A DNA stretch of 64,000 bases from a virus (IMGVR_UViG_3300021387_000299:32001-96000), one strand, 5' to 3'. Shown: positions 27,195 to 64,000, counted from the stretch's first letter. The notes: generated from the letters alone by a model not told the origin. Made by a program: numbers and translations.

Positions 27195-27230
27195 AAAAAA
27201 AAAGAGGATTAATTAAAAATTAATCCTCTT
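27195..27230 (-). terminator. intrinsic terminator after the holin
   Basis: AAGAGGATTAAT..ATTAATCCTCTT followed by T-run on the - strand. Confidence 0.75.
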
Positions 27231-27531
27231 CTATGCTGTTATTTTGTTGAAATTGTCTTCAAGAGGTTAACTGACCATATAATTCAAACATATAGTTAGA
27301 GCCTCTTGATAAAATTATTGCAGTAGCAATTATACCAATAATGGGCCATTGTTCAACAAAACCTAACATTACAAAGAAATTAAGACTCATATCATAGCAA
27401 AGTAAGCCACTTAAAATCAAAGCAACAATAATTTGTCATTGAATAGAACCATTTTTATAAATTTGTTGTCCATATGAAATTAAGCCTTCAATAAGAATAG
27501 CTACAGCAATGAATGGAAAAAAACCGCTCAT
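27220..27531 (-). CDS. holin (3 TM, SRGSN family) with 2 TGA(Trp)
   Basis: MSGFFPFIAVAILIEGLISY..GSIQ(W)QIIVAL...IIGIIATAIILSRGSNYMFEL..; TGA at 27436-27438 and 27259-27261; directly downstream of the endolysin. Confidence 0.8.
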
Positions 27532-27567
27532 AATATTTAACCCCTTTATTCTTATTTACATTTATTT

Positions 27568-28293
27568 TCAATTGCCAATAAATCTACCATTTTTATCAAA
27601 CATGACAGGGACAGTATGCTTGCCAATAAATAAGGCACCGTTCTTTCCGAAGAAATACCAGTTCCCATCAAGTTTGCACCAACGAGATGAGGCCATAACC
27701 CCATGATCAAGAACAAATCTCTTAACGCCATCGTCATTAATCCATGCATGTTTCTGCATATAACCTTCAGCGTCAGTATGATATGTCTTGCCATCAACTG
27801 TAACCCATTGATTTCTTACCCAAGAATCACCGAGTTTGCATCTCTGTCCTTTACTATCCTTCACCCATACAGCTTTCTGATCTTGCAATGCGTTAAATCT
27901 GAAGGCTCCAAGAATATCTAACTTCAATTTAACTGTGCAGTATCCGCCATTGCCGCCTTGGTTCTGCCCGAAGATGTATGCATATCCATCCTCTTCGGCG
28001 TATCTTACAAGCATACCGACATGAGAAGAAGGACATGAGCTACCCATTGCCCAGAAGAGCCAATCGCCCGGTTCTAGCTTTTTCTTGTCTGTAATAAATT
28101 TTGCATACGCTGAATATTCAATTCTGTTATACCAGTATCCATCTGCCCAACCAGTTTTTGTAGGTAATACTGGAACTTTAATATACCAACAGAAACGTTT
28201 GAATGCATCAACGCACTGTGCCCCATAGACACCATCATAGTCATCGACTTTCCCATTATATTGGTTAATAAAATCTTGCACTATTTTATTCAT
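27568..28293 (-). CDS. endolysin: CHAP domain plus cell-wall/choline-binding-type repeats
   Basis: DGVYGAQCVD, SHVG, FGQNQG; C-terminal W..DG.WY.F...G repeats; 11 Trp, all TGG. Confidence 0.9.
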   Translation of the reverse strand: MNKIVQDFINQYNGKVDDYDGVYGAQCVDAFKRFCWYIKVPVLPTKTGWADGYWYNRIEYSAYAKFITDKKKLEPGDWLFWAMGSSCPSSHVGMLVRYAEEDGYAYIFGQNQGGNGGYCTVKLKLDILGAFRFNALQDQKAVWVKDSKGQRCKLGDSWVRNQWVTVDGKTYHTDAEGYMQKHAWINDDGVKRFVLDHGVMASSRWCKLDGNWYFFGKNGALFIGKHTVPVMFDKNGRFIGN

Positions 28294-28336
28294 AACATTT
28301 CCCTCCTTTTATTAAAAACAAAGGAGGAAAATAAAA

Positions 28337-28894
28337 TTAACAACACTCCTTTGTTTTTTTACAATATTCTTTATATTTTTTATCTTGATCTGATATTATT
28401 GAATTAATATCAAAATCTGTTGTTTTTCTTTTTACATAAAGTGATTCAGCTCCAGCCAATTCTTCGTCTACATCACAAATCAAGCATCCAAGGAATTGTG
28501 CATCAGCAACTTCGCCCATATTCATTAATTCAATATACATTTTTTGATATAAGGTTTTTGTGCTACGCTCTCAATCTATTCATTTTTCTAAACCTGTTTT
28601 TACCGCATTTCTTTTTGTTGTAGCATCAACATCTTTGCGTTCATATGCATACCAAGAGTTAGGAATTACTTTTGGATCATCTACCGATTTAGTTTTTATT
28701 AATTTATTATGATGTCGTAAATAATATCTATTAATTTCCATATAATTTTGACTTTCGGATAAATAATGATATCTATGACATTCTGCATAACCTTTTAAAT
28801 TTAAAAAACAGTAATAATTAGACATTTGATCGTGAATCATCAAACCTTTTATCATATGTGCACTTAATTCAGAATAAATTTCTTCAAGTGTCAT
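28337..28894 (-). CDS. ferritin-like four-helix protein, 2 TGA(Trp)
   Basis: ORFs 28580-28894 and 28337-28540 are in frame via GLEK(W)ID(W)ERSTKTLYQ; L.GY...H.Y.Y..E and D.D.E.. ferritin-like pattern. Confidence 0.7.
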
Positions 28895-28895
28895 A

Positions 28896-29306: not shown

Positions 29307-29346
29307 TTAATCATTCCTCCTAAACTTTTCCTTTTGATTAAAAATA

Positions 29347-29374
29347 AAAAGGGCAACTAAATAGTTACCCTTTT
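29347..29374 (-). terminator. terminator-like hairpin
   Basis: AAAAGGGTAACTA..TAGTTGCCCTTTT followed by T-rich tract. Confidence 0.55.
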
Positions 29375-33616: not shown

Positions 33617-35440
33617 TTAGAAAAAATTTGCACCATCAATTTGAACTCAGTCTTCTTCTTGAGGAGAATTGGGTCATGCTTTATTTATATAAACATATGC
33701 AGTTTCCAAATCATCTCCATTATAAATATAAATATTTGATGGAGATTTTCAATGAGCATATAAATTTATTTCAGCCTCTTCTCCTTGATAATCTCAAGTA
33801 TAAACAGTAAGATCTTCAGTTGTAGGTGGATCTGAATAAAATTTTACATTACCTTCATCTAATACTTCTTCAGTTCCAATGCTCGAAGTTGAAGAAAAAT
33901 ATAATCCATCACCAACGGCTTTTGCCGCAGATGGGGTGATCGTGCTATATCAAGCATTATCATATGGTTCATAAACTTTTCTTCCATTATTATCAAAATA
34001 TCCTAAAAATGCTCAACCTTTTGGATGTTTTGGTTGACCTCTATATGCATAAATATATGATCCACCCGTATAAGTCGCACTTTTAGGACCGATGTCAGTA
34101 GTATCATTACCAAAATATCCGCCATTTGCATATAAATTTACCGTTGTTTCAATTTGAGCATATTGAGCTTGAAATGTAAAAACTGTTTCTCCAAACTTAC
34201 CTAAATAATAAGTGTCACCCGTTTGATACATTTTATTATCATTTGTACATTTCCAACCAACAAAACGTTTGCCTGTAGGGGTATAATCTTCAAAATTCGC
34301 AGGTGGAGTAATAATAAAATCAGTTCATTCTGATACGTTATCATTGCCTCTATTAGTAATATTTACTGTTGAGTTATCCCCAAATTGGAAACTAGTAGTA
34401 AAAAAAGTACCTCGAAATGCTCATAAGGCATATAAATGAAGCGATTCTGTTAATCCACCTTTTCATGAAGGAATATTAGGAAGAGGATTAATTACTGTTC
34501 CAGAATTTTCTGTGGCCCATGTGGTTGTAGAAAGAGTTCCAGTAGCTGGCCCGAAAAAGTCAGTATTTTCTACTGCCACAGTAGCATAATTTTGAATACT
34601 GGAATCACTATTTTTTAAATATTCTTCATTATATTGATATAAATCATAAATTTTGACAGCATTTTCAAAAGTTGGAGTAGTATAATATCCTTTAAAAGAT
34701 TTTAATTGATCAGTATTTTCAATTAAAGGAGTTCCTCTAATTCCATATTTAGTTCCGCTATCATCCGGATATGCATGTGCTACAATCTGTAAAGTTTGAT
34801 CATGAGCAAATACTCGGCCATTTCCATCTAAGATAACTACTGGGCCGCTATCTTTTCATTGAGCGGTAAGTGTTAAATTTGCATTAACATTATAGGTATC
34901 TCCTCCAGAATAAGAATGATTATTATTTCCTTGTCAATGATCAAATTCTTTTCCAACTGGCGCAGAAAAGCTAAAAGAATTAATTCCTTTAATTGTATAA
35001 TTTTTATTATATTCTTTACTTTCATTTCTAGAAGATCCTGTTCCAGAACCTGGTTTATATGTAATAGTATAAGTTGAAGCAGGAACGCTAACAGAAGTAC
35101 TATTACTTGCTGTTGGTGCATGTCCTGAGGTTTTTCCACAAGCAATTCTTATGGGGATATCTGCTGCGTTTCCGGCTCCGAGATTTACTGTTCCATTATT
35201 AATAAGAAAGTCTTTTGTTTCATATCCAGAATAATCACTACCGTCTACTGCATCAACAACTCTTGTTCCATTTATTTCTAAATAATATCAAAAAGTACTA
35301 TTCATTCAACGCTGATAATTACTTGCATCAGCATAATATTGTCTAACATAAAAATTTCAATTAATAGTTCTTGCGGAAGCATTAACTGTATAGTCTACAT
35401 ATACGCCACCATTATATTCAAAAGCCGTAAGTGTTGCCAT
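33617..35440 (-). CDS. virion protein with Listeria-Bacteroides (InlB B-type) repeats (607 aa, TGA=Trp)
   Basis: YTITY.PGSG..GKEFDH(W)..NLTLTAQ(W)K and LYAH(W)K repeat signatures; GGAGG RBS. Confidence 0.75.
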
Positions 35441-35463: not shown

Positions 35464-37827
35464 TTATTTTTCTATAAATTTATTAGCATAAATTTTTAAA
35501 TCTTTTGCTATTCTAGCCAATCCATAAACGCGTATATATAAATCAATATATCCAGTAGATATATTAGAATTTGGGAAACCCGGTATTTGATTTGTTTGAT
35601 ACACAGTTCAAGAACCTAATGCTCCATATCAATTACCCGAATTAGTATTTGCAATAGACATACGCGTACCAGTAGCTCTTCTTCATAATCCACCCATAGT
35701 GCTATTTGTATATCCAGAAGAAGTGTTATAAGTAACAGTTCCTGGTTTAACATCTTCTCATACAGCATCATTTGGATTTATATTTTGTGTTCAACGATAT
35801 TTTTGTTCTGTTGCGGTAGAGGTTGTTTTTTGTTTAACCATAAATTCATAAGTTGGCATATAAGGTATTTGCTCTACATTATATCATTTATTTTCATTTA
35901 TATAAACACCATGTTCTCAATCTGCGCTTTGCGCAAAATATCCACTTGTAGTGGGATCATTATGATGGAAAATTCTTATTCAAGTACTGCCATCTGGCTC
36001 TTCATAAATATTAGTATCATATTTTATAAATGGGTTCTCAAAAATTTCACCTGTTTTTACTTGTCCGTTTTTATTAATGGAGTTTTCTTGATTTTCTACA
36101 AATTCAAAACCATGAATACCATTTAAATTATCAATATTTGCAGGGGTATTATATAAAGCTAATACATCTTCTGCGGAAAGTGCGGTTGCATAAATTCTAA
36201 AATCTGACATTTCTCCTTTGTATGGGGTATTGTCTCCAGATCGAGTATCTCTACCAATTCTAAATGTAGTAGGAAATGTTAATGTATTATGCGCAGCAGT
36301 CGAAGCTCATTTTTGAGTTCCATTAATATAAACTTTAATATCATTAGAACCATTTTTTACAATACAAATATGTTGCCATACTCCATCAGAAATTGTTGCC
36401 CCAGTACATGTTTCATCTGGAGATCCATTTCATCATAATCTAAGTAAATTTGTAGTAGTTTTTTCTATTGACCATGATATCCCTGGATAGCTTCCAAAGT
36501 AAACAGAACGAACATTATTTTCTCCATTTGGTTTAATTCAAAATGAATATGTAACAGAGCTATTTATTATATTTGAAATATTTAAATGTTCAACTAAAAC
36601 GCCATCATCAATTCCATCAAAGCTAGTAACGACACCATATTTTCCAGAATTTGATGATATCGTAATTGGTAAACTTATTATATTACCATTGTGTTCATAA
36701 CCAGAAGAGTCTTTTATAGTATCTTTAGCATCCCCAAAATACGCCCTAATATTTGAAATAGTGAAAGAAGCACCTTCATTTGAAGTATTTAGTCTTACTC
36801 TTATTCTTGATTGATAAGTTAATGCATATGTAGCTTGTGCGGCAGTAACTTTAAAAGTACCTTTATGATGACCAGAAGGCGTATTTGTTAATGTTGTATA
36901 ATCTATACGATCAGAAGGAGAAACAATGGTTGTATTAAGCTGAGAATATAAATATGAAGTACTTGCGGTTACTCCGGTAACACTGTAATCATATTCTACA
37001 GTAATTGTTGTACCTTCTGTTATAGCATGAGTATATTTAGTATCTATATATCAAAAACCGGTATAAACAGCCGTTGATCCAGAGGCAATTGTAGCTGTTT
37101 TAGAAGCAACTGAAGTGAGAATATTTGGTTGAACTCCTTCATCTAATTTATAATGCAGTATTAATCCCTGACTTATTTCTTTTACTTCTAAAGCAGATAA
37201 ACAATGATCATAAATACGGACATCATTAAGATAGCCATTTAATCTATAATTCCCATGTAGAGCATTACCAGAGGTTCCATTAAAAGATCAAGCAAAAATT
37301 CCAATATAATCTTCTGGAACAGACATTACTCCAATGTTATGAATTCCATCGACCTTTCCATTTACATATAAAGTTGCTATAGATCCATTGTATGTAAATC
37401 CAACATGATATCAAGTATTTGCTGATAATAATGTGCTTCCACAATAAGTATTAAATGTTCTGCTTGAACCTGTACCAGTATTTATAGATAAATATCCTGT
37501 TGTGGTAGATACATGTTTTATTGTAAGTCCCATTCCCGTATTATTTCCATAACGATGTTGAGTAATCATTGCTCCACCTAAATTAGAACCACTTGTTAAA
37601 GAAGTAAATTTTACTCAGCAAAACATTGATTGATTTATACCTAAACCAATAGTTTTTGAAGAAACTAATCCGCCTCCAGTACTTGAATTATTACCATAAC
37701 AACTACCTATTTTTCCATTAGCATTTTCTGTAGTGCTAGTTGTATTTGCCATAGAAAAAGTAATACTTCTATCAGTTCCTATATTTTTAAGATCACCATT
37801 AAGCGGCAACCATATTTTTAATGCCAT
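35464..37827 (-). CDS. LamG/concanavalin A-like domain tail protein (787 aa, TGA=Trp)
   Basis: MALKIWLPLNGD, (W)YHVGFTYNG...LYVNG, GYLNDVRIYDHCLS..EV, MSDFRIYATALS. Confidence 0.8.
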
Positions 37828-37894: not shown

Positions 37895-40800
37895 TTATGC
37901 AAATATAAAATCTAATGATTCTGTTGTTGAATTGTAATGAAGGGTTGCGTTATCAGCCAAAGTAATATCATTTACTTTATCCACATTTCCTGTTTTATCT
38001 ACAGAGAAAATATTCTTTCGAGCTGCGATGCCTCCACCTCCAATAACAAAAGAATGTGGCTTATCTGTAGTATCAGGTTCGTTGCTTTGTCCAATGATAA
38101 AAGTTCTCTTAGTATTAACATTTTTTAAATTGGCACCAAACATTACTACATCATCTTTATTATTAGTGTTATTTAAAAATGATCCATATAAAAAATTACC
38201 TCAACCATTAGTAGCTGAAGGTCCACCATTTCCAAAACAAACATTATACTGTCCTCCAGTTATATTTGCCATGATTCCACCTATATTAAAGTCTCCTAGT
38301 ATGGTTGCACCAGCTATCGCAAAATTTTTTGAAGATGATAACGCTGCTGAAGATAAAGTTGTATCAGTTGTTATTTTAGGATAAGCCCCACTAGTATCTA
38401 CATTAGTAATAGTTGCGCAGAAAGTATGAGTTGTTCTATTTATTACTTTTTTCCCAATTCAAGCCTCAAGTCCAGGATAACTACTAGTTGGTCAATTTTC
38501 CACTGTATAAATTGTTGCATTAGCGGCCCCTGTTAAAGTTATTGGCGTAGTACCAGAAGTAAGAACTAAATTATGACTACCTTCAATATAACCTGTTGAA
38601 CCACTTAATATCAATGAATTTCTTCCGCTAATATAACCATTTCCAAAAGCAATAGAATAATTTCCTGTAACTTCTGTTGGAATATCAATACCTGGTTCTG
38701 AATTTCTATCTAAATACATTGAATTGGTTCCAGTTCCTCTTATAAGAGGTAAATTATTGCCCAATTCAGTTTTTGTTGCATATGTTGAAGTAATGACGTT
38801 GCCATCGCCATCTTTTTCTGCATTACCAATTAAATTACCAGTAAAGGTTGGCGCGGTAACTGTTCCCTTAAATGTAGCATTACCCGTTGTATGATTTAAA
38901 ATAAGTGCATTTACAGAATAAGTTGTTTGCAAAGTAGAGTTTCAATTAGATCTAAGATAAAGATTCCCTCCACTATTTGCTATTTGCCAAGAGGCATTGG
39001 TTCCTCTTCATAATTCAAGTGCTACAGCTTCACCAGCGCCACTATCACTAGAACTAATAATTAATTGAGATGATTTGTTCGTTGTTGTAGCTGCATCTGC
39101 ATCTCTTCCAAGCCAAATATTTTTTGCTACAGCAAAACCTGAAGCAGTTCTTACTCCAGCTGTAGTTGAACCAGTTGCTTTTGTAGTAGGACCAAAATAT
39201 ACATCTCCACCATCATTATTAATGCATAAAGTTGCTGTTGAAGTTCCGTCTGTTTTAGCTTGAATTTCATTTGAATCAAATTCAAGATGTGTGGAAGTGG
39301 GTTGTCCGCCAACAATTAAAGCAGGTCTCCTATCTACAGTACCACTAGCATCTTGAGTTCTGGATAGAATTAAAGTGCCAGTAACAATTCCTCCGCTAAG
39401 AGGTAAGTAATCATGCGTATGATTACCCGCTGCTGCAGTGGTTGAAGTTGTGCCTAAGGTTAAAATAGTTGGTTTATTTTGAATATAGCTTCAATCTAAA
39501 TTACCATATAATGTTACATCATTATTTTGATCTATCTTAAGAATAGATTTGCCTGTTCCATCATGATTCTTTGCATAAATACCCTTATCACCAGTTGCAG
39601 AACTAGCAGATCATAAATAAATAGATCCAGCTAAAGTTCTAGCTATAACATCTTTTTCACTATCGGCGGATTCAGAGCCAGCAATAATACTTCCACCTGC
39701 AGTAATAGTTCCATTTGTAATTAACTTTGCCGGGAATGTCGTATTTAATTCAACATCTCAATCATAAATATGATTTTTTTCAACCATATTATTAGGTGCA
39801 GTTCAAGCACTCATACCATAAAAACGAATATCTGAGACATAAGCCGATCCATAATTTGCATTTATTGCAGTTTGTTTAAATGTTAATCTATATTTATAGT
39901 AATGGTCTGTTTGATTAGTAGTGCCACCAAAATGAGCTTGAGGAAAATATCTAATATTATTATTAGGTCATCCATCAAGTAATTGATTTGTAAATATAGT
40001 AACAAAAGTTTCTTTTGCTGCAATTGTAGAACATTCTAAGTCCATTTTTACCGTATTAGCAGAATCGGACAGTCAAACATAAACAGAATCCATACTAGTA
40101 TATCTGTCTGTTGGTTCAATTGTGACTCTTAATTGATTATTAATATTATTGTTTGCTTTTGCACTAGCTTTTCCTAAATAAAAATTTTTACCTTTTGTTT
40201 CAGAAAATAACGCTACTTTTTCAGCATTTGTTGCGCCATAATCTGTTCAAGTATTGCCACCATCAGTAGAATATTCTACAGTAATAGCTTCTGCTGGCAA
40301 ATTAAAAGTTTTATTACTTGCCGCACTTCCAACTAATGGTCGTGTAATGTGATCTAAACTACCATGTCTAGCATCTGTATCTTTTCCAATTTCCAAACGG
40401 CTATGGGTATGATTAACTGTTGCATATGTTGAAGTGATAATATTACCATCGCCATCTTTACCGGCTTTTAAATCAGCAGTTGCAATTTTAACTGGTTCAC
40501 CATTTGTATTAAAATAAACAGCTTCAGAACTAGACCCCTTAGAAGCTCAAAGTGGTGCATAAGTATGATCTCCAGCTGTATTATTATAAATAATTCAGGT
40601 TGATTTAGTTCTATCATAAAGTCCTCTATTAGTAGAAGCTAAAATAGAAACAGTTCCATTATCATTAACAGCTTTTATTTCAGCGCCATTAGTTCCACTT
40701 GCAGTAGTTATTAAATTATGTGTACTTGGATTATAAGTCAATCCAGATAATTTATTAACACTACCAGTTTCTTCATTGGCGTTGGCCGATAACCCACCCA

Positions 40801-48621: not shown

Positions 48622-51600
48622 TTAATTAGCTGCAATATAAGTTTTAGTCTCAATATTAGAGAAATAACTTTCAATCAATGCAAATCCTTCATATTGAGTT
48701 TGAGATTTATAATAGAAAGTCATATTTGAAGTTTTTCCACTACTATGATTATATACTTGCCCACTAACAGTACCGCTATTATCTAATAAGTTTCTACTAC
48801 TTACTAAATATAGATTAGATCCTTCTGTAAGAGATCCAATTTCAAATTGTTCAACTGAGCAAAGCTGATTACCAAAGCATAAACTTCCAATTTTTACAAC
48901 AGAAGCTGGTACTTTAACCAAATCTAATGTAATAGTACGTGCAAATCCACTATTAAATGCGGAATCGCCAATTCTGGCAAGAGTAGAAGGTAAAATAATA
49001 CTATTTTCTTTTGGAGCGTCTGTAATTGGAGTAATTGTTTCAATACTTTCAAAACTCATAAAATATCTATTTCCAATTACACGTAATCCTTCAGGTAATT
49101 CAATATATTTTAAATGCATCGCAGTATAACTTGCAGGAGTAGAAGAAGATTCTAACATTCTTAATTTGCAAGGCTCTGCTTCGCTACTCTTTCAGAAAAT
49201 ATGAGTAATTTCTTTTGAATCTCCTCTGCTATTACTATTATTAAATGTTGAGCCTAACGTAATAATAGGTAAACCATTATAATAACTAGGCAAAGTTATT
49301 TTTCCAGTTAACTTATATCCATTTTTAATATTAATAGTATATCCATTTGATACATTATAAGCAGAATTTCAATAAGCTTCTGGTATAACAACTTCACTAA
49401 CACCTTCAACATATGAAGTTGGGGTAAAATCAAAGCAATTTACATCAGTGGATTCATCATAAACAGATTGCTTCATATAAACTGCGTAAATTCTAATATC
49501 TTCTTCTGTTACTGAAGTAGCATCTAATTTTAAAAGAATAGAACTTAAACGGTTTTTATTTGTTGGTAAAGCATCTGCTTGATTTCTAGTATATCCTTTA
49601 AAAGAATAGATTTCTGTTAAACCTAAATTACCTGGGTCATATACCGGTAATTCTTGAGGATCTGGAATTGGTTTACCATAAGTTGTTTTTCTTGTGGTAA
49701 TTTCAACACCATCTGGATTTATATAATGAATTGTATATAAAGTTTGAGTAAATACTGCGTATAATTTAATAACTGTTTGCTCGGCTGAGAACACTTTGCT
49801 TAAACCCAATGAAGTCCAAGAGCTAGTTTCTGCATTATATGCAAGTTTAGATTCTACATCTAAGTCAGTTGGATTTACATACTCAAAAGCCCATCCTCTA
49901 AAATCATAAGTTTGTGGAGCAGAAATAACCTTTTGCGGTAAATCTTGAACTGGTTGTCCAGTAACAGCATCAGGAGAGTATCTAAATGTTTCAATTTCAA
50001 CTTCTTTGCCAGTATTCATATCAACTTGAACATATTTTCCTAAATATGCTTCATTGATATATCTTGCAGTAATCTTTAGTTTATTCCAATACTTATTATA
50101 TTTTGAAGTTAATTGATCTTCATCAATCTTGTGGTCTTCATCATTATTAACATATAATTCACCAGTAATTGCTGGAACAGAAGCTGAAATAGTGCCAACT
50201 GCATTATTAATAAATTGGTTAACATTATTACCTGTTACTGCTTCTCTATCAGCAATAAAATTATCTAATAAATCCAAATTGGTAATCATATCTTTATTTA
50301 ATGAATCATCATATGTATAAATTCTACCATTTAATGTATTGTTTAATCAATCATTAATATTATTATTTGTATATGGCTCATATGTACTATGATCTGTTAA
50401 ATAATAATAATCAATACCTGTTAATTGACTTTCACCATATTCAACTTGAGTATAAGGAGTCCATTTTACATTAAGAAGATTAGCTTTTAATCTATTTCCT
50501 ACACCAGTACCATATTTCAAATTATAAAGATTCTGTAAAATTTCATAAGAATCATAACCTAAAGCGTCACCTTCAAAATCAATGGTATTAATTAATGAAC
50601 CAGTTCCTGCTTTTGAAGAATCATAATCAGTTAAACCTTCAACATATAAACCTTTATATGTTTCTTTATCTCGATAAACAGCTTTTCCATCTACCATATC
50701 TAAGATAACTGGTTTTTCTCTTAAAATTCTTGTTAAGTTTTTATTTTCTACTAACTTTAAACTTTCAACAGTGTTTGGTAAATGAACAATATCTAAAGGT
50801 GCGCCATCTGCAAATGTAACACCCTGTAACTTAGTACCAAGAGCTCTAAATTCTTGTAATTTTCCAGCACCAGTTGCATCAATCTTACGATCTAATGAAC
50901 GAAGATTTGATAGAATAATTTTTTGTAACAATGGTTTCTTTTCTTCATTTGTATCTTCATCTCTTTCAGTATGTAATTCAAATGGATCGAGAGTCTCATT
51001 ATTAAAATATTCTGGAACATCACTGCCTAATGTAATATCAAGTAAATGTGGTGCATTAGCATATTTAATCTGATTAGGATACTTTGTGCTTAAATCACCT
51101 AAACTTGAAATATAAGGAGAACCTGCAAAATAGTTTAATTGTTGATCTACTGAACCAGATTTAAACGATTCTAAAATAGAAGGCGAAATAACCGTAGGAA
51201 TACCATTTGGATATTTTGCAGCATCATAAGATTCATTTGTTTTATATAAAATTTCATCTACAAATGTTGTTACATAGAAGTCTAAGAATGGAGTTACATA
51301 GAACTCAGGAGTTGCATCAATATAAGGAACTGGGTATGTTGCCACAACCTGACCTGCCGCAGGTGTACTACTATCAATATATTTATCAGATGTGGCAATC
51401 TGTTGGTTTGCAGTAACACGGAACATAATGCCAGCCATACCACCAGTAGAAATGGTAAAATCACCACCACTTCATTTAGAATCCATATAAAGAAGTCTAT
51501 TATTAATTAATAATTCTCTAGAAAGAATTCTATCACCTTGACATGCATATAAATAATCTGCTGTAGAATAAGTACCATCTTGATGCTTCCATCTCTGAAT

Positions 51601-54600
51601 TGTCGGTAATACATACTTATAATATTCATCAAGTCCAATAGCAATAATTGGTCTCTTACCTCTCATTGCATAAGAAGATCTAAATACATCAGGATCACAG
51701 GTATAAGCACCTTCAATACGTTGATATGTTAATTTACTGCGTCTTAAAGCTTGATAAGTAGAAATAATTTCTGATTTAAACAAATCATAGAAGTTAGTCC
51801 ATAATACACTTGTTCCAGTAGAGAATGTACGGTTTTCAGTACAATCTTCATTATAATCTCATAATCAAGCTCCAACGTTATTTAAACCTAATTGAGTATC
51901 AACATCATAAAAGATAGGATACCAAATATAATCCCCACCTTTTTTGTGCGGTCCAAATGTTGCCATCATCATATTTTTACCACGTGAATCATAGCAAAGC
52001 AACAATTCAGTCATAATGAAATAAATAGTGCAATAATGTTTATCAAAGTGATCATTAAACTCAGAATAGAATTTCTGTTTTCTATATTCAACAGTATCTG
52101 CTGAGAATTCACCATATAATATTACTGAATTTGCGCCAGCATCAAATCATTGACCTTCTGCATATTGATACCAAGATCCTCTTTGATTAGTAACATTTTC
52201 TGTTACTTCATAATGACCTACTGGTAATGTACCAACAACAGTTGGTTTCTTATTTTTTGGATCATCTTCTGATAAAGGAGCGTCAACCAAATCGACTGGA
52301 GTAGTAATATTAATAGAATAAACATAAGAAGCTGTTGGATCATCTGATTCTCTCGAAACAATATATCTAATAGGCTCATCGAATGTATTATTTGTTGCTG
52401 ATGTGCCATCTGTTGAATCTAATCAATTAAATACACGTTCAAAATTAGCGAATTTAGCACGCAAATAATTACAAATTGCAGCATTACTTTCGTTTGCAAT
52501 ATATTGAGGAACGAAACTCTTTCCATCATCATCTGTTGTCTTATATTTTTGAGCAGCCTCAATTTGATCTGCTTCAACGTTATAACGAGGTTCAAAATGT
52601 AATGAGACTTCCAATTTAGGATTTGTTGCATCAGAATCTTCTGTTAAAGCACCAAAACCAGCTGCGCGCATCTGCTCATTTGGATATCTAAACGAACACC
52701 AAGTACCTTGATTATCTCTTAATTCTCAACATTCTGCTACATCTTTTATATAAGGATGCTCATGAGTTGCAGCAATTGTTTCGCCATCATCCTCATATTC
52801 ATATCAAGTTTTATCTACATATGGATGTTCAATCTCTTCTTCGAATCCATAATATTCATTTGAACTCTTATCAAGGTTCATATTATATCTACCAATATAT
52901 GTATATTCATTTTCAGCAGTTTTATGGAAAACTAACATTGGGAATCCATAAACACTTGTTCGATATACTGAACTATCCAAATCTCTTAAATTTAAATCTT
53001 CAAGAGGATGTTTGTCATAAATACCATTACCCATAAGATTAGCAAAACCAGTATTGTAAGAACCAGAAGATTCCATATAGTCAATCTTTCAAGTAAATTT
53101 ATTAGTACCTAAAGTTTCACTATCCATATGTCATTTTTTAGAAATTTTTTCACCAGTTTCAAGCGTAGCTCCATCAGCGATAGGTTTTCCTGCTAAAGAA
53201 CCTTGCGTATAAACTCAAGTCTTTTTTGCGCTCTTAAATTTGGTTTTAAAATTACGTCTTGGATAAATCTGTGAAGATGTACCTTGTACATTCAAGTCAA
53301 CATTATCTGCTGTAAAACTAGGACAATGTGTATAATATTCATACTCAGAAATTCCACCCTTTTCTGGACCAAGGCTCAATAAATAATCCGCTGTCGGATT
53401 AACAAATTCAATTGTTACATTTTTATTGCCGCCTTTAAAATGTGGTAACTCTCTATCGGCCTCAGATAATTTTGTCATATCAATAACTGCATATGGCATT
53501 GTAGGAGCATCTGGATGCTCAGCATTATACTGAACCAATAATTCATATGATAATTTAGTATCGTCATTTTTATCAGTTAATAAATTTTCATCATAAAGTG
53601 CAATACTCTTTAAGTCAGAAAGATAATTGTGAATTACTTCTGGCATTGTAAGAGCAATTTCATAAAATCTTAATTTATATAAATCAAAATCACAATATTC
53701 TGAATTAATTAAGAATGGAATGTTTACCATATCAATTGCGGCAACGTTACTTAAATTAACAGCGCCTGATAAAATACCATTCAAATAAATAGATAATGTT
53801 TTTCTAATACTATCTATTACAAATGAAATATTAATGATTTCGTTTTCTTTATAACGTACGTTAACTGTTTTCCCAGAAGTTCTAAAGTAAGCTTCTTGAG
53901 TACCAATACAGAATCCTTCATTATTTTCATTAAGATACTTCATGGCAACATTATTTTTAGTTTCAACAACTTTATCTGTTGTATCTTTTTCATTCATAAC
54001 AGGGTTGCCATCACCATCTCTATATAATGTTCCACCTCTAGCTGCAATCTGATCTAAAGTTAATGGAGCACCAGTTGCTTCAACTTTATTTCCAGATTCA
54101 TCAACATAATCAATACCAATGATTTTTCCATCTTGATCAATTCAACCATATTTAGGAATTTCTGTAACTAATGTGCCATATTTTTTAGCATTTCTTACTC
54201 TAAATCTAATTTCAAAACTATGTCCAACGCTACCAGTATTCATCGTAACTGTTTTAAATGGAATTTCTACGCTTGCGCCATTAGCAACAGATAAGAAAGA
54301 ACCAAAACCATCTTGATTATCTTGTCATCCATTGTTATACCAGTTAAAATTATTTAATTGTGCAGTATATGTCCCTTTAATTGTAGATTCCCAAACGCCT
54401 CTTGTTGTTTTAACTTCTCTACTAGAACGTCCTGCCGCATCAAAATTAAGAGCTAATGAAGAAATATTCTTTAAAGATAAATCTCTTGAACCTTCATCTG
54501 TAATATTAATAATAACTTCTTTACTTGAAACACCACAAGCAATAGTAAATCTATTTTCTCCTAATTGGTATAAAGATGTAACATCCCAATACAATCATCC

Positions 54601-55839
54601 ATCATCATGATATCTTTCTTCTGCTTCTCCAACTTTTACACCATTTCTATAAAAGATAATTTCAGTATCAGTTGCCCCTGCCTTTGGATCAAATATCATA
54701 TATGGAATTACAGCGTTTTCATATTGGATAACAGTCTCTGGAACATCGCCAATCCAAATAATTGGAACTTCTTCTCCGCTTCTTGCTCAAGCAGCTTCAT
54801 AACTAATAAATGAAGAAGTTAATTCTACTCCTCCAATTTCTGCACTTAGGCTTAAATCAATTGTATGAGTACCATGAGACTGTTCTGGAATACTAACATA
54901 TGAAGAAGTTCCATTTAAATCATTCGCACTCAATGTTTTTGAAAGAGATTCTACTTCATTGTTATCAATCATAACATGTAAGGTTGCTCTAGATAAACCT
55001 AAACCATAAGGAGCATATTTTAACTGTAAATCTCCAGCAGTTGTAATAGAAATATAGTTATTCGGATTATTTGGATCTACTGGTTTTTCAAGATGCATGT
55101 CAATAAAACGAATATTGCTAAAAATACGAGTAGCAGGAGTTTCTGCCATTGCAGATTCGGCTGTAATTCTTACATACATTCCTGTTCCAACATAATCTAC
55201 ACTACCAAAATCAACCGCAAATTGTTCTCCAATTGGAACTATATTTTTAATAGTAGCAACTGGCTCTTGCTTTAAGTCGGATGATGCAAAAAATTCTACT
55301 GTAACATTTGCTTCATCGTCTTCTGTCGTGGAAGTAATTGTAAAAAGAACATTAAAATGTTGTTTAGAGATGTAAGAATAACTACCAGTAATAGTAGAAG
55401 TATCTGGAATAATAGTTAAAGCAGAAACTTTAGTTCCTCCACCACCACTACCAGAGCCACTAACAGCAAGTAATGATGCTACTATAATTTTTTCAGCTGA
55501 ATTAACTGATTCTACTCTAAAGAATCTACCATCTGAATTAAGAATTAATGCATCTCTTTGAGGTTCAACTGCTGCATTATCTAAAGCGTCCATACTAATA
55601 AAATAAGTTGTATCGCTATCATCTTCAGATTTTTTTCTAATTTGTTCTTCCGTTCCATCCGCATAAACAATACCTGAACCTGTGGCTCCGCCACCGCTCA
55701 TTATATGCTTAGAACCATTTACATCAAGAATAATTTGATTAGTATCATATGCAAAATAAATTTTACCATCATAATAATCTTGTTCCATGATTTGATCATA
55801 AGTCCCACGGATAGGCCAGAACTTAATTTTATCAGCCAT
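48622..55839 (-). CDS. giant (2405 aa, TGA=Trp) protein with LamG-like, CotH-like kinase and leucine-rich-repeat regions
   Basis: Nine track ORFs share one frame separated by TGA; QGTSS..YPRRNFK, T(W)KIDYMESSG, GRYNMNLDK, DSRGKNMM..IWYPIFYDVDT motifs; C-terminal BspA-like LPEGLRVIG/LPSTLARIG. Confidence 0.78.
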
Positions 55840-58680: not shown

Positions 58681-58722
58681 AAAAATAAAGAAGCAAGAAT
58701 CTTTAATTTTCTTGCTTCTTTA
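58681..58722 (-). terminator. intrinsic terminator
   Basis: AAAGAAGCAAGAA..TTCTTGCTTCTTT + TATTTTT. Confidence 0.7.
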
Positions 58723-61700
58723 TTTGAATTATTGGAGCATTATCTGAATAAATGGTAAATATTTGCTCAGTAGGATCTCAATTAAATGAAATTGAATTTT
58801 CTGTCTCACTATAGGCTAAAGGATGATTATTATGTTTAATAGATGAATTATTTACTTCTAATACATTTATAGGAACTGTAAGATCATATGAAAGTGGAGT
58901 TATAGTATAATTAAATACTCCTGCATTTCCGCTTCCGCCTCCTCCACCTGATCGTTGATATTCAATAGTAATTTTTGCTATCTTGGTATTCTTTAATCAA
59001 GTTCTATTATTATAGGTTGTTTCAAAATCTCCGACCTCTCCATTTCAAAAAATTCTATCAATTATATTATTACTGTTATCATAAAAAGTGAAAATAAAAG
59101 GCATATTTCCGCCATATACATAAGATCCACTAAAAGAAACAATCTCTTCTGCAATATTTGCTTTAATAGACAATCCACTAAACACAGATATATTTGCGCT
59201 ATCTTGTAAATTTGAACCACTATAAATCGTTTGAGGGTTTGTCGGTACCTTTTCTTGCGCAAACGTAAAGCCTTCTCCTCGGATTTCAACATTTTTATTA
59301 TCATAAGCAAGAATTTTTCCAGTTGTATTTTCTTCGTCATCCAAGAACGAAAGCATAGTGTTTAATTGATCTCTAATAGGTACAACATATTTTCTATATT
59401 GTTCTGGTAAATCTAAATTAATTTCATCTCCATCTAAAGACAACTCAATACTATTTTCAGCAGATTTTAATTTAATTGCAGATTCTGAACTTTGAGCAGT
59501 AAGTGTTTGAGTTACCCCATCTTTATCTCTAATATTAACGATTCCATAAGCATAACCCTTATCTTCTAATTGAGCCAATACATCTCTACATTGATTTATC
59601 ATACCTTGAATAGTATTAGAATCTCTAATATATTCATTATCTGACTGCAATATTTGAGATGTTTTTAATATCAATCCATACATTGTATTAAAATCTTCGC
59701 CCAATCCTTTAATTTCTTTAGCTGTCCAGGTTAAATTTCTAGATCCTAAAATACCATTAGTTGGAACGCTCTCTTCATTTCATTCCATTCCATTTGGTCA
59801 CTTTGGTTCGCTATCGCCAATAATATTACCAATACGTTCATAATAAACACCACTATCAGTATATTTAGTAACTTTTTGTTGTCCTGTTGTATCAATATAA
59901 TATGTATTTGGTGCAAATCAACGACATTGTTCTAATGGAATTTCTTGGAAATTTACGTTTAAAATACGAGTTTCGCCAACTAAAGGTCCGCCATTTTCTG
60001 TTAAATTAGCTTCATTAGGATCTGTTAAATGAAGTGCCGGATAATACTTATAATCTCCTTCAACTGTTAGATAATAAGAACCTCCAATAGAGAAGAAGAA
60101 TTTTTTTCTCGCATTAAAATCGACAATTCTGTAATATACTAATGACTCGCTACGATTTCTACCTTGAGAAGTTTTTAACCTTTCTAAATTTTCTAATACA
60201 AAAATTGTTTCTCCACCATAAAAATAAAAGTATTCTCCTTCTACAAAATCTTGCAATGAACTAAATCTAGAGCTTTCTACTCCAGCTAATACTTCTGCGG
60301 TGCCACCAGTAGGATTTCAATACTGATATAGTTTTACTTGCTGCGGTGTTGTTTTAGTTAAATTATTTCTACTTATTTCATCTAAAGTATAATATCCGCC
60401 TTCATCGCACAAATACATCGAAGCGTAATAATAAATTGGTGTCTCTTCTTGTAGATCGCTAAATTCAATTAAAGGTTGATTATAATAAGTTCCATTAGTA
60501 ATTCTTTCAACAATAGTAGTTTTATTACTATTTGTAAAAATTGTTAATATTCCCGAATTTCCTTCTTTAGAATACTCGTATCTATTTGCTGGTACTTCCA
60601 TACGCTTTTTTGCTTGACGAATAGGATCTGTTATATAAGCGCCTACTGTTCCCTGGGTAGGTTCTGCTTCTTTATAAAAAACATATCTACCATTTTCAGA
60701 ATATTCTCACTGAGAATTTCCAGTAATCGCTTTTAATGTAGCTTCCGTTGCCAAACGAGTTAATCCTGTTTGATTATCTTTAACATAATAAACATCTGGA
60801 ATATAAAAAGGTTTATCTATTTGATAATTAGCATAATCTGTTAAATCATAATAAATACCTTTTTTTGCAGAAAGATTATCATTATCTTTAATATAACAAA
60901 CAGTATTTACACCATATTGCTTAGAAGTATCATAATAATAATAAGAATGACCATCTTCTTTTTTATCTTGAGATTGACCAGCTTTTCATATTGGTGCATT
61001 TGTAATAAATCCATATGTTGCACCTTCAATAATGTCACTAGAATCTTTAACTTTTATATAATTGTTATACCCAGTTTTAAAAGCATCAACATAATCTTCA
61101 TCATAAGTTTCTTCATCCAATATTTCTGGATATTCTTCGGCAGTTTTTCTATAAAGATAAGAATATATATTATACTCTCCTTCATCTTCACCAACTATTA
61201 CCGGTATTTTATCAACCAAAAATTGTTTCGTATATTTTCCATTTTGATCAGGCTCTTCATCAATCATATATAATTTTTCATTAGAAAAATCTGAAACTAT
61301 ATCTGTTGGTAAAGTATAAATTTGTCTATAAGCATCAGCATTACTTACTATTGCATTGGTCTCATATTTTGTTCAATTATACTCTTTATTTTTTATATAG
61401 TATTTTCCATCAACAAAATAAATTTTTGCAGGATCTCAATTTTCAACGTTATCTAAAGAATCATATGATCTAATAATCATACCCATTAAATCATGTGCAG
61501 AATTAATAGTTCCAGCCATTGTTTTTAATGCATCATGATCAAGTACCTTATTACCAGCTACTTTTGTATACGCTCTTAATCCTTGAGTTGAGTTTCAGTA
61601 TGTATCAATATTTCTAAATCCTCTATTTTCTGCTTTAGACGCAAAAGCACTAGCCGTTTGATCTGTTAAATCATCAGGATTTTTATAATATAAACGAAGA

Positions 61701-62827
61701 CCATCGGTATTATAATAACGATTTTCTCCATAAATTAAATCTCAAATTTTAGAAATAGTTTCGCCAATAGATGGCAGCATAATACTTAACTCATACATAT
61801 CTGGAGCCATATCGGAAACACCACTTAATAAATCTTTATAAATTTTTCCGGATTTACCAGTAGGAGTAATAGAAATAAAATTCTTTGCTTTTCCATTTTC
61901 ATTAATGGCAGTTTTTTCACTTGTCTTTAACGAATCTAATGCATTAGAAGCACTAATAAATTTATTAAAGCCCTTCTTATTATAATAAATCGCTAAAGGA
62001 GAAGAACTAGAATCTCCTTCCAACGTATCATATCCACCTATTACATCAGAAGGATAATAATTTAAATCTTCTGAATAAGTAGCATTAACCTCTCTGCCAT
62101 TTATATATTTCTGAAGAGTTAAAGGAACTGCTCTTTTTACTCGCATACCCCAATTAGGTTGCATATGCAATCTATAAAAATTAATTGTAGAATCTGCTCC
62201 AAAATAAGGACTGCTTGGAATTACTGTCGGAGCGTCTATCCCTAAAGAAAAAGCAGGACTAAGTGCATTTAACTCGGCAATCATTATATATCTAGCTTTT
62301 CCGCCTTGATATGTTTTTTGCCATACGGTAGAATCTCATCCTCTACCAATATTCGTATATTGTTGTCCATCAACAATTAAATTCTTTTCATATGTAGAAT
62401 AATTTGCTGATACTTCATTACCAGATGTATAACTTATCTCTTGTGATAAAGATGGATAACGATACATTTTAGGAATCGTATATGAGGTATATTCATTATT
62501 ACTATTATACTCTCCAATAACTGTAATAATATCTCCATCTGAAATTGGAACTCCGCCATCTCCAAATGGAATATCTAAAGCCGCCATAATAGTTCCATTA
62601 ATTTTGTATCCAATTCTAACAGTTTTATCTATAACGTCGCCTTCGTGATAATCAACTAAAACATATCTACCATTTAATACTGGTTCAAGTTTTTCTGAGC
62701 CATCTTCTGTAATATAGTAGCCAAGCTCAGCCTCTTGGTCCATTGTTGCTCTATTGGGGAATATTCTATCAAATTGAAAATTTATTTTTTGTAATTTAGA
62801 TAAACTTCCATAAAATCCGTTACTCAT
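58703..62827 (-). CDS. large structural/tail protein (1374 aa, TGA=Trp)
   Basis: MSNGFYG start; six track ORFs share one frame separated by TGA; TAA at 58703. Confidence 0.75.
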
Positions 62828-62828
62828 A

Positions 62829-63164
62829 TTATGCCCCCTCTCCATATAAAATATCTACTATAAGATAATTATTTTGTTCTTTTTCAATTCTACTTAAACT
62901 AGAAGGATCAAAATCTAGTTTTCCAATTCTTAAAGTTCCAGTAGACATTAAATCATAAATTCCACTATTTCCCATAATAATCGGAAATACAGAATCATTT
63001 AAATAAAATTTGACTCCAGGGATTGTTTGCACACCCAACTGCATTATTGGCAAATAATTATAAAAAGCTTCTCCCGTTGATAATGATTCTTTTGTTAATT
63101 CTCTAGGAAAATTACGTTCATCGCCATCACCAAAATATCTCAATTGTATAAGATTTTTAGCCAT
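62829..63164 (-). CDS. hypothetical structural-region protein
   Basis: AAGGAG RBS; LGVQTIPGVKFYLN..I.MG..GIY.L pattern. Confidence 0.7.
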   Translation of the reverse strand: MAKNLIQLRYFGDGDERNFPRELTKESLSTGEAFYNYLPIMQLGVQTIPGVKFYLNDSVFPIIMGNSGIYDLMSTGTLRIGKLDFDPSSLSRIEKEQNNYLIVDILYGEGA

Positions 63165-63178
63165 ATCTCCTTTCCCTC

Positions 63179-64000
63179 CTAATATATACGTTTTGTTGTC
63201 TGAATAGCACTAATATTCATTTGAGAATTAAGACCTAGCTGTATTGAAAATTTTTGTAAAATATATTCTCCAACCGCGCCAGTCTTCTTATCGTTCAAAT
63301 ATATTAATGTATTTGGAGATAAATAATATATTGGAATAGAATTAAAGGAAATAGTATTAATTGGATAAGCATATTGATATAAATAATCTTCAATTACATC
63401 CATAGCATTTTTTCCTCTTGTACTTAAAGTAAATATTCCTTTATAAATATTTGGAATTTTTATATAAGAATATCCTGGTTTTAACCATTTCTTTTGTACA
63501 TCTTCATCCCCAAAATCAAAAATAACATTCGGCGTTTCTCTAAAATAAATAGATTTTATTGCTGTATCATTTGCGGCTTTTGTCCTTTGACCTATAATAT
63601 TAACCCCATATTTATTAATATTATTACCATCGCCCGCATCCAAAAAATCAAATCAAAAATTTAAAAGTTCTGGATTATTTAAAATATTTATATTTCATCC
63701 ATCGCTATTAAAAGTGAAATTTCCATCAGATTTAAGCCATCTCTTAGGATCTTTTGTAGGCTCTGACTTATTGTTATTAGCTAAAGATAAATATACATTA
63801 GTTTCATCTTTATCAGATTTATATTGAACATAATCGCCTTTTTTATAACCTTCAGTATTATCTTCATCTCAAAAAGAATAACTATCATCTTTTATAAAAG
63901 CTGTTTTTCCACCTTCTTGAATAGTATATCTTCCAGTAGAAAATTCACCAGCATCGTTAATAGCATCTGGATTATATAACTCTCTCCAATATGCGACAAC
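63179..64000 (-). CDS. minor tail/baseplate hub-like protein, C-terminal part (TGA=Trp; start outside window)
   Basis: Frame open to the window edge if TGA=W (e.g. NF(W)FDFLD); ends PIYYL.PN..I...D...G..GEY....FSI.L..MNISA-TAG. Confidence 0.65.

What the first reader, a model, noticed from the sequence alone, without database searches (positions are those of the whole stretch)
27220..64000. TGA-to-Trp recoding concentrated in late/structural genes while replication genes are code-neutral
Seen: - strand ORFs break at TGA, in frame, at Trp motif positions (NGV(W)K repeats, YNGTY(W), LTAQ(W)K, NGDV(W)LKY, K(W)ID(W)E). Fused genes have SD-preceded starts and TAA/TAG ends. The + strand replication genes end in TAA/TAG and use only TGG (DnaE: 20 of 20), which is unlikely in an AT-rich genome if TGA were freely usable. 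Established: stop-codon recoding biased toward late/lysis genes is known in gut phages. Inference: the phage infects a standard-code host (its CHAP endolysin implies a cell wall) and switches code during infection using its own tRNA, so late proteins cannot be made prematurely.
Basis: partly seen in the sequence, partly recalled or inferred. Interest (0 to 1): 0.85.

Follow-up and report, generated by a model that had tools for sequence, protein, structure and literature searches.

The report
Phage late genes read TGA as tryptophan
A 178-kb rumen phage spells most tryptophans in its tail, fibre and other late genes with the stop codon TGA, while its early genes avoid TGA or still end on it. 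This two-code layout is already published for gut phages; here it is run by an unusual UGA-reading tRNA beside the lysis genes.

Summary
In window 27220-63164 the minus-strand genes hold 107 in-frame TGA against 59 TGG. Coding density on that arm rises from 0.52 to 0.96 when TGA is read through. TGA columns align with Trp (TGG) in standard-code relatives. The plus-strand replication arm has 7 TGA against 101 TGG, and 4 of the 7 lie in a RuvC-like resolvase.

Beyond the window, 12 of 79 small early genes end on TGA. Two of them have orthologues that end at or within three residues of the same place on TAA or TAG. So one genome uses TGA with two meanings.

The phage encodes no release factor and no TrpRS. 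It has one tRNA(UCA) at 26412-26506, in a TGA-free unit with the holin, behind a conserved promoter of the type that heads the structural arm.

The recoded phages form one clade nested among standard-code relatives. One complete standard-code relative lacks such a tRNA.

This is the pattern of Borges et al. (Agate-type phages), so it is a new member of a known kind. Whether it acts as a timing lock is unproven: holin and endolysin are effectively TGA-free, and TGA share tracks gene divergence.

Side finding: this tRNA carries a decoy Trp anticodon arm, which the scan has already noted on other DNA. Sibling phages carry an intron-split tRNA(UCA) at the same locus.

The parts
27220..64000 (-). 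Late (lysis-proximal, tail and tail-fibre) arm read with TGA = Trp. It continues to window 99600 (genome 131600).
   Evidence: 107 TGA against 59 TGG in the genes 27220-63164. Coverage 0.52 under code 11 and 0.96 under code 4. SD plus ATG at all 21 starts. Domains: Laminin_G_3, Phage_fiber_2, Phage_tail_C, LRR_5.
35464..37827 (-). Laminin_G_3 tail-fibre-like protein, 787 aa, 16 TGA and 3 TGG.
   Evidence: The query was translated with X at TGA and compared with 120 homologues. W is the top residue in 12 of 16 TGA columns, for example 112 of 119 cells at column 139.
33617..35440 (-). Fibre-like protein, 607 aa, 14 TGA and 2 TGG.
   Evidence: 8 of 14 TGA columns are W in every homologue, including homologues at 28-31% identity.
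37895..41227 (-). 1110-aa late protein, 15 TGA and 3 TGG.
48622..55839 (-). 2405-aa late protein with a weak LRR_5 match, 17 TGA and 14 TGG.
58703..62845 (-). About 1375-aa late protein, 14 TGA and 3 TGG.
46158..48299 (-). 713-aa gene inside the fibre block with 0 TGA and 9 TGG. It is an exception within the late arm.
   Evidence: Orthologues in G001 and G002 are at 43-45% identity.
27562..28293 (-). Endolysin with C-terminal choline-binding repeats. It has 11 TGG and one TGA two codons before the TAA, so it is functional under either code.
27200..27232 (-). Terminator hairpin that closes the structural transcript.
   Evidence: In 6 relatives the stem differs in sequence but stays paired.
27165..27193 (-). 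Promoter of the tRNA-holin unit: TTGACT, 17 nt, TGTATAAT.
   Evidence: 11 of 12 consensus matches. Conserved in 6 relatives. It shares TAGAAAATTT..TATAAT.ACAATTGTAA with the promoter at the head of the late arm, genome 131667.
26534..27141 (-). Two TGA-free small genes (73 aa; 123 aa, weakly Hsp20-like) upstream of the tRNA.
26412..26506 (-). tRNA(UCA), 95 nt, with a 7/5 cloverleaf, G73 and an encoded CCA. Its roughly 25-nt variable region forms a 5-bp stem with the 7-nt loop GUCCAUA, a look-alike of the Trp anticodon arm.
   Evidence: ARAGORN. Rfam tRNA at 62 bits. Comparison across the tRNA family.
25989..26390 (-). Holin, 133 aa, no TGA. It is followed by a bidirectional terminator at 25945-25987.
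   Evidence: PHROG holin match at 2.6e-23. Terminator.
24793..25311 (+). RuvC-like Holliday-junction resolvase at the end of the replication arm, 4 TGA and 1 TGG.
   Evidence: PHROG match at 1.3e-16 and Pfam RuvC, both spanning the TGAs. The TGAs are kept in G001 and G002.
1..25959 (+). Replication and nucleotide-metabolism arm: LigA, Sak4-like protein, DnaB, RecJ, Dda-like helicase, DnaE, NrdD. It is essentially TGA-free and all stops are TAA or TAG.
   Evidence: Annotation. 7 TGA against 101 TGG, stops 28 TAA and 2 TAG.
15265..19170 (+). DnaE-type DNA polymerase, 1301 aa, 0 TGA and 20 TGG.

Best explanation
This is a virulent-looking 178-kb rumen phage (IMG/VR record, about 95% complete) that uses TGA with two meanings.

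Shown:
- In structural, fibre and tropism genes, a second lysin, an HNH endonuclease and a RuvC resolvase, TGA stands where relatives have Trp.
- In replication genes TGA is absent.
- In the promoter-dense block of small early genes TGA is a working stop.
- The genome has one tRNA with anticodon UCA and no release factor or TrpRS.
- The tRNA sits in a TGA-free transcription unit: terminator, conserved sigma-A-like promoter, two small ORFs, tRNA, holin, terminator.
- The promoter and operator-like sequence of this unit recurs only at the head of the structural arm.

Inferred:
- The host reads TGA as stop through RF2.
- Early proteins are made under the standard code.
- When the late-class promoters fire, the tRNA accumulates, is charged with Trp by the host TrpRS, and outcompetes RF2, so TGA-rich late genes become translatable. 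The hairpin in its variable arm copies the CCA anticodon loop and probably serves as the recognition handle for TrpRS.

Open: whether this is a selected timing gate, or the tolerated result of TGG-to-TGA drift in a 34% GC genome once a suppressor exists.
For: TGA = Trp.

Partition by gene class, with p = 3e-68:
- late arm 190 TGA / 120 TGG
- LRR/tail-fibre block 17 / 7
- replication arm 7 / 101
- right early block 7 / 174

TGA-bearing genes outside the arm all have late-type functions: LRR_5, tail fibre, HNH, Amidase_2, RuvC and Mtd_N.

TGA as a true stop: 12 of 79 right-block genes end on TGA. Genes at genome 146591-146980 and 163327-164067 have G001/G002 orthologues that end at or within three residues of the same place on TAA or TAG.

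Family context:
- 22 contigs at 71% mean identity or more across the aligned late genes use TGA in frame, and about 50 more distant ones use none.
- Late genes of the standard-code relatives end on TGA in 38 of 287 cases.
- The recoded contigs form one clade, support 96/87, nested in standard-code relatives.
- The complete standard-code relative G010 has 21 tRNAs, none with UCA, and 16 of 176 stops are TGA.

tRNA and its unit.

No RF-1, PCRF or class Ib synthetase domain in six frames.

Published precedent: Borges et al. preprint 10.1101/2021.08.26.457843. In a cell-free screen, 13 of 13 phage tRNA(UCA) inserted Trp (PMC12636597).
Against: - There are no expression, proteomic or charging data.
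- The host is unidentified. Relatives are binned into many unrelated MAGs.
- The holin has no TGA and the endolysin only a terminal one, so lysis timing cannot hinge on recoding here.
- The tRNA shares its promoter type with the late arm, so recoding may add little control beyond transcription.
- TGA share follows divergence: 72% in fibre genes at 25-50% identity to siblings, 35% in head genes at about 65-96% identity, and 0 in the major capsid protein.
- The base after sense TGA shows no avoidance of strong RF2 contexts.
- The record is linear and about 95% complete, so a missing factor cannot be excluded.
Confidence: 0.82

Rival explanations
1. Permissive drift, not regulation. Once the clade acquired a suppressor tRNA, AT-biased mutation turned TGG into TGA wherever translation happens after the tRNA is present and occasional termination is cheap. 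The early/late split would then be a by-product with no gating role.
For: TGA share rises with divergence and falls with presumed abundance: fibre genes 72%, head genes 35%, major capsid protein 0 of 3. Holin and endolysin are TGA-free. Gene 46158-48299 has 0 TGA and 9 TGG inside the fibre block. TGA and TGG interchange freely between siblings. Borges et al. propose the same evolutionary route.
Against: RuvC, HNH and the second amidase are embedded in early modules yet recoded, and the RuvC TGAs are conserved in siblings. The tRNA sits next to the holin in all 12 clade members examined, counting this phage. None of this excludes drift, because tolerance is also set by timing.
Confidence: 0.4
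2. The host itself uses code 4 (a Mycoplasma-like organism) and the phage simply follows it.
For: Low GC (34%). Some related contigs are binned with 'Mollicutes', 'Tenericutes' or 'Bacilli' MAGs.
Against: Early and replication genes use TGG for about 96% of Trp codons. My arithmetic: 0 of 20 in DnaE has a probability of about 1e-9 at the late-arm rate. TGA terminates 12 early genes, and orthologues of two of them end on TAA or TAG at or within three residues of the same place. The phage carries its own tRNA(UCA). It has two peptidoglycan hydrolases with choline-binding repeats. Sister lineages use the standard code. Binning of phage contigs into MAGs is unreliable.
Confidence: 0.03
3. TGA encodes something other than Trp (Sec, Cys, Gly or Ser), as the ARAGORN label 'tRNA-SeC' and the long variable arm might suggest.
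For: ARAGORN labels the tRNA SeC. The long variable arm and G73 resemble tRNA-Ser and tRNA-Sec. One ORF showed TGA aligned with Cys.
Against: W dominates TGA columns in standard-code homologues. The Cys signal came from an antisense ORF artefact. The cloverleaf is 7/5 with a 4-bp D stem, not the Sec type. True tRNA-Sec found in the same scan lack the UCCA loop.
Confidence: 0.02
4. The TGA breaks are pseudogenes or assembly or sequencing errors.
For: None beyond the broken ORFs under code 11.
Against: The breaks are only TGA, always in frame, and shared by 22 independent contigs from many samples. The read-through ORFs match full-length domain models.
Confidence: 0.01

Closest known systems
TGA-to-Trp recoded 'Agate' phages and the other recoded clades of Borges et al. 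(bioRxiv 10.1101/2021.08.26.457843)
   Same: Large low-GC gut or rumen phages. TGA = Trp in structural and lysis modules spread over the genome. Replication genes are in standard code. A suppressor tRNA is present. A recoded homing-type endonuclease lies in an early module. Close standard-code relatives exist. A standard-code host and a mid-infection switch are predicted.
   Different: Clade membership by terminase tree was not tested. Here the holin and endolysin are not recoded. Early genes demonstrably end on TGA. The tRNA type and its promoter are described.
'Code change module' of TGA-recoded Jade phages: tRNA(UCA), TrpRS and RF1 upstream of the lysis cassette (Borges et al., Fig. S6)
   Same: The suppressor tRNA sits in a standard-code unit directly next to lysis genes.
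   Different: No TrpRS and no RF1 here. The unit holds two small ORFs, the tRNA and the holin. Dependence on the host TrpRS is inferred.
TAG-to-Gln (and TGA) recoded crAss-like and Lak phages (Peters et al., PMC9523058; cited)
   Same: Late-gene-biased stop-codon reassignment, with proteomic support in those systems.
   Different: Different codon and amino acid, Bacteroidota hosts, unrelated phage lineage.
Phage suppressor tRNA(UCA) with a decoy Trp anticodon arm, noted by this scan on other genomes (e1-5618491, e1-5349151, e1-4092069 and others)
   Same: This phage's tRNA is of that type. All 36 distinct non-Sec long-arm tRNA(UCA) sequences collected here have a covarying 5-bp stem and an N-U-C-C-A-A/U-N loop.
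   Different: Here it occupies a locus where all 11 sibling contigs carry a different tRNA: class I and intron-split.
Group I intron in the anticodon loop of cyanobacterial and plastid tRNA-Leu(UAA), inserted after U34 (my own knowledge)
   Same: The sibling phages' tRNA(UCA) is interrupted after U34 by 196-322 nt. This stretch matches the Rfam group I intron model end to end (22.7 bits, E = 8e-4 in a 351-nt search). Removing it in silico restores a 73-75-nt cloverleaf.
   Different: The score is below Rfam's gathering score. Splicing is untested. It is not present in this window's tRNA.

Membership tests
Stop-codon-recoded phage, code 4 type (Borges et al.) | In-frame TGA in conserved genes aligns with Trp in homologues | tested here: met
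Stop-codon-recoded phage, code 4 type (Borges et al.) | Coding density and ORF length recover under code 4 but not under code 11 | tested here: met
   Minus arm 0.52 to 0.96. Whole genome 0.80 to 0.92.
Stop-codon-recoded phage, code 4 type (Borges et al.) | Phage-encoded suppressor tRNA with anticodon UCA | tested here: met
Stop-codon-recoded phage, code 4 type (Borges et al.) | Recoding concentrated in structural and lysis genes, with replication genes in standard code | tested here: met
   Caveat: the holin and endolysin in the window are not recoded, while a second amidase is.
Stop-codon-recoded phage, code 4 type (Borges et al.) | The host uses the standard code | tested here: inconclusive
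   Only internal evidence is available: TGA stops in early genes, standard-code sister lineages and cell-wall lysins. No host was identified.
Stop-codon-recoded phage, code 4 type (Borges et al.) | The code changes during the infection cycle | not testable with these tools
The only hint is a promoter shared between the tRNA unit and the head of the late arm.
Agate clade (Borges et al.) | Placement inside the Agate clade on the large-terminase tree | not tested
The resemblance rests on genome size, habitat, codon and layout.
Bacterial tRNA-Sec | 8/5 acceptor/T branch and a 6-bp D stem | tested here: not met
   7/5 branch and a 4-bp D stem.
tRNA(UCA) with decoy Trp anticodon arm (scan-internal class) | Variable arm with a 5-bp stem and a 7-nt loop with U-C-C-A at loop positions 2-5 | tested here: met
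   Loop GUCCAUA on stem GCGGU/GCCGC.

The most novel reading that the evidence does not exclude
The code switch in this clade is run by interchangeable suppressor cassettes at one fixed locus, just upstream of the holin and behind a late-class promoter. Eleven sibling contigs carry a class-I tRNA(UCA) whose anticodon is split after U34 by a self-splicing group I intron, so decoding would need splicing. This phage instead carries an intron-less tRNA(UCA) whose variable arm is a copy of the Trp CCA anticodon hairpin, serving as a handle for the host TrpRS. Both would be devices that set when and how efficiently UGA is read. I found no published description of either in the searched library.
Probability: 0.35. 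Interest if true: 0.75.

Novelty: new member of a known kind. Interest (0 to 1): 0.42.

Why it matters
The finding adds a nearly complete, well-partitioned example of a dual-code phage. One genome shows both meanings of TGA: Trp in late genes and stop in early genes. That is the sharpest sequence-only argument for a standard-code host and a mid-infection switch.

It also shows a single origin of recoding within a large rumen phage family. The suppressor tRNA is tied to the holin and to a late-class promoter. Together these give concrete handles for testing whether recoding gates late translation: promoter, tRNA, intron and decoy arm.

For annotation, such contigs must be called with code 4 in the late arm but not in the early block, where TGA still terminates genes.

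Tried and rejected
1. A TGA-to-Cys signal suggesting Sec or Cys, in an ORF at genome 120717-121535 (+). It proved to be an antisense artefact of two minus-strand genes.
2. The nucleotide after sense TGA compared with TGG. A is enriched and C depleted (chi-square p = 0.005), with no depletion of T. This is not a pattern of RF2 avoidance.
3. RF-1, PCRF and tRNA-synt_1b domains in six frames of the genome: none found.
4. An exact 21-nt pattern from the tRNA in IMG/VR gave 0 hits. BLAST of the tRNA against siblings also gave 0 hits. The explanation is that the siblings carry a different, intron-split tRNA.
5. Rfam at E of 0.01 or better on six sibling loci found nothing. The group I intron match appeared only in a narrow search and stays below the gathering score.
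6. Host assignment from genome contigs. Major capsid protein relatives sit in MAGs labelled Treponema, Clostridia, Bacilli, Mollicutes, Prevotella and Methanobrevibacter, among others, so the binning is uninformative.
7. CHAP domain. There is no Pfam, NCBIfam or PDB sequence support for the endolysin N-terminus.
9. Five literature searches for a variable-arm anticodon mimic in tRNA(UCA) found no description. The library is incomplete.
10. My first greedy ORF caller fused or mis-stranded some small genes. I replaced it with a codon-score caller that lets TGA be either stop or sense.
Full report
**Source.** The window is bases 32001-96000 of a single 177,819-bp contig with 34% GC. It is an IMG/VR virus record rated about 95% complete.

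- Under code 11 the minus strand from 27220 onward breaks into many short ORFs. Reading TGA through gives long ORFs.
- ORFs of 100 aa or more cover 52% of the minus arm (27220-64000) under code 11 and 96% under code 4. The plus arm (1-25959) changes only from 85% to 89%.
- All 21 minus-strand genes in the window begin on ATG behind a GGAGG-like SD.
- A codon-score gene caller that lets each TGA be either a stop or a sense codon gives 107 TGA against 59 TGG for the genes in 27220-63164. It gives 190 against 120 for the whole late arm (to genome 131600) and 7 against 101 for the replication arm.
- DnaE has 0 TGA and 20 TGG.
- Late-type against all other genes gives Fisher p = 3e-68.

**TGA means Trp.**
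- I translated gene 35464-37827 with X at TGA and compared it with 120 database homologues. W fills 52% of 1324 cells at the 16 TGA columns and is the top residue in 12 of them. The rest are mostly Y or variable.
- In gene 33617-35440, 8 of 14 TGA columns are W in every homologue, down to 28% identity.
- For the head genes I collected 74 related IMG/VR contigs around the capsid gene. This phage's TGA columns there align with TGG in 54% and TGA in 22% of cells, and conserved columns are almost purely TGG or TGA.
- A TGA-to-Cys signal in one ORF was an antisense artefact.

**Family context.**
- The 22 contigs at 71% mean identity or more across the aligned late genes use in-frame TGA for 15-57% of Trp codons. 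About 50 more distant contigs use essentially none.
- Late genes of those distant relatives end on TGA in 38 of 287 cases.
- On a capsid-protein tree the recoded contigs form one clade (support 96/87) nested among standard-code relatives.
- A complete standard-code relative with terminal repeats (G010, 175,638 bp) has 21 tRNAs, none with anticodon UCA, and 16 of 176 stops on TGA.
- Recoding is therefore derived and arose once in this family.

**The partition follows gene class, not strand.** The plus-arm genes are LigA, a Sak4-like protein, DnaB, RecJ, a Dda-like helicase, DnaE and NrdD. TGA-bearing genes outside the late arm are:
- the RuvC-like resolvase at window 24793-25311, with 4 TGA and 1 TGG;
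- an HNH endonuclease;
- an Amidase_2 lysin with 5 TGA;
- an LRR and tail-fibre block at genome 13.5-19.9 kb;
- an Mtd_N tropism-type gene near the right end.

All of these are functions expected to act late.

**Exceptions inside the late arm.** The holin has no TGA. The endolysin has 11 TGG and one TGA two codons before its TAA. Gene 46158-48299 has 0 TGA and 9 TGG.

**TGA share by module.** TGA makes up 72% of Trp codons in the tail and fibre genes, which are only 25-50% identical to sibling phages. It makes up 35% in the head genes, which are about 65-96% identical to those siblings. It is 0 in the major capsid protein.

**TGA is still a stop in early genes.**
- The right-hand block (genome 131.6-177.8 kb) is packed with TTGACA-N17-TATAAT promoters and small genes.
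- There, 12 of 79 genes end on TGA, followed by non-coding sequence.
- For two of them (genome 146591-146980 and 163327-164067) the orthologues in two nearly complete siblings end at or within three residues of the same place on TAA or TAG.
- Trp in the early and replication regions is TGG in about 96% of cases.
- This is the strongest sequence-only evidence that early translation follows the standard code and that the host is not a code-4 organism.
- The host itself could not be named. Relatives are binned into many unrelated MAGs.
- The CHAP call was not confirmed. Choline-binding repeats and the second amidase still point to a walled host.

**Machinery.**
- The genome has no RF-1, PCRF or TrpRS/TyrRS-type domain.
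- It has 29 tRNAs, including a normal tRNA-Trp(CCA) and one tRNA(UCA) at window 26412-26506.
- The tRNA(UCA) lies in its own unit. The order is: terminator 27232-27200, promoter 27193-27165 (TTGACT, 17 nt, TGTATAAT), two TGA-free small ORFs, the tRNA, the holin (25989-26390), and a bidirectional terminator.
- The promoter is conserved in 6 relatives while the terminator stem covaries.
- Its distinctive sequence, TAGAAAATTT..TATAAT.ACAATTGTAA, recurs only once in the genome, upstream of the first gene of the structural arm.
- This suggests that the tRNA and the late genes are switched on together. That step is an inference.

**The tRNA itself.**
- It has a 7/5 cloverleaf, a Trp-like body, G73 and an encoded CCA.
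- It also has a roughly 25-nt variable region that folds into a 5-bp stem with the 7-nt loop GUCCAUA.
- A pattern scan that did not constrain the variable region returned 49 distinct long-armed tRNA(UCA) sequences from IMG/VR. Thirteen are tRNA-Sec-like. All other 36 have a covarying 5-bp stem and a loop N-U-C-C-A-A/U-N, which has the geometry and sequence of a Trp anticodon arm. In mononucleotide-shuffled controls, UCCA appears in 7% of the variable regions.
- I reached this reading before consulting the scan's notes. The notes show the same feature reported on several other genomes and on this window.
- Five literature searches found no description.
- A cell-free screen reports Trp insertion by 13 of 13 phage tRNA(UCA) (PMC12636597).

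**Sibling phages carry a different tRNA.**
- The 11 sibling contigs holding the same holin locus do not carry this tRNA.
- Each has a class-I tRNA(UCA) interrupted after U34 by 196-322 nt.
- The insert matches the Rfam group I intron model end to end at 22.7 bits, below the gathering score.
- Removing it restores a clean 73-75-nt cloverleaf with anticodon UCA in all 11.
- The locus is therefore fixed while the suppressor cassette has been exchanged.

**Comparison with the literature.**
- Borges et al. (bioRxiv 10.1101/2021.08.26.457843) describe TGA-to-Trp recoding in large gut and rumen phages, including cattle-derived Agate phages.
- They report recoded structural and lysis modules scattered through the genome, standard-code replication genes, a recoded intron endonuclease in an early module, close standard-code relatives, and a proposed switch during infection.
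- This genome adds four things: TGA stops in early genes backed by orthologues; a single nested origin of recoding; the tRNA-holin unit with a late-class promoter; and two alternative tRNA designs at one locus.

**What remains open.**
- The purpose is not settled. The timing-gate reading and the permissive-drift reading both fit the distribution.
- The unrecoded holin and endolysin, the abundance and divergence gradient, and the lack of any RF2-avoidance context lean somewhat toward drift, or toward a weak gate.
- No expression data could be obtained.

Noticed in passing
L176-L186 (e.g. L177:3689-3960); syntenic with window 26412-26506: All 11 sibling contigs carry, just upstream of the holin, a class-I tRNA(UCA) split after U34 by a 196-322-nt insert. 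The insert matches the Rfam group I intron model end to end (22.7 bits, below gathering). Removing it in silico gives a clean 73-75-nt cloverleaf. Plain ARAGORN misses these genes, which may help explain why many recoded phages seem to lack a suppressor tRNA.
   Followed up: partly
window 27165-27195 (-) and genome 131636-131667 (-) = window 99636-99667: Two promoters share TTGAC-N5-TAGAAAATTT-N3/4-TATAAT followed by the palindrome-containing ACAATTGTAA. One drives the tRNA-holin unit and the other the first gene of the structural arm. This may be a late promoter and operator class. G001 has three similar sites.
   Followed up: partly
L001:4405-4479 (genome 4405-4479), also in G001 and G002: A 75-77-nt tRNA with anticodon CAA (labelled Leu) has a short variable loop instead of the long arm of bacterial tRNA-Leu. 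It lies next to tRNA-His and tRNA-Trp or tRNA-Cys. Its identity is unclear.
   Followed up: no
L008:14794-15159 (genome 174794-175159): A small gene with an Mtd_N (major tropism determinant) domain and one in-frame TGA, next to a 435-aa gene. This may be a target of a diversity-generating retroelement. I did not look for a reverse transcriptase.
   Followed up: no
genome 135.5-152 kb (beyond the window): About 37 near-consensus TTGACA-N17-TATAAT promoters on both strands lie among very small genes. This looks like an immediate-early block read by the host RNA polymerase, and it is where TGA-terminated genes cluster.
   Followed up: partly
window 46158-48299 (-): A 713-aa gene with no family match, 0 TGA and 9 TGG sits in the middle of TGA-rich fibre genes. 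It may be a recent acquisition or under different constraints.
   Followed up: no
P0121 (= window 33617-35440): The public protein collection already holds this phage's 607-aa fibre protein translated straight through its 14 TGAs, on a contig of 178,171 bp. Some pipeline has therefore already called this genome with code 4.
   Followed up: no
L027 (IMGVR_UViG_3300037455_000058): This contig falls outside the recoded clade on the capsid tree, yet it shows 3 in-frame TGA against 29 TGG in the aligned late genes. It may be an early stage of recoding or an independent case.
   Followed up: no
L002:7374-7967 (genome 22374-22967): An HNH endonuclease with 2-3 in-frame TGAs lies inside an otherwise TGA-free early module. 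This parallels the recoded intron endonuclease that Borges et al. report in Agate phages.
   Followed up: partly
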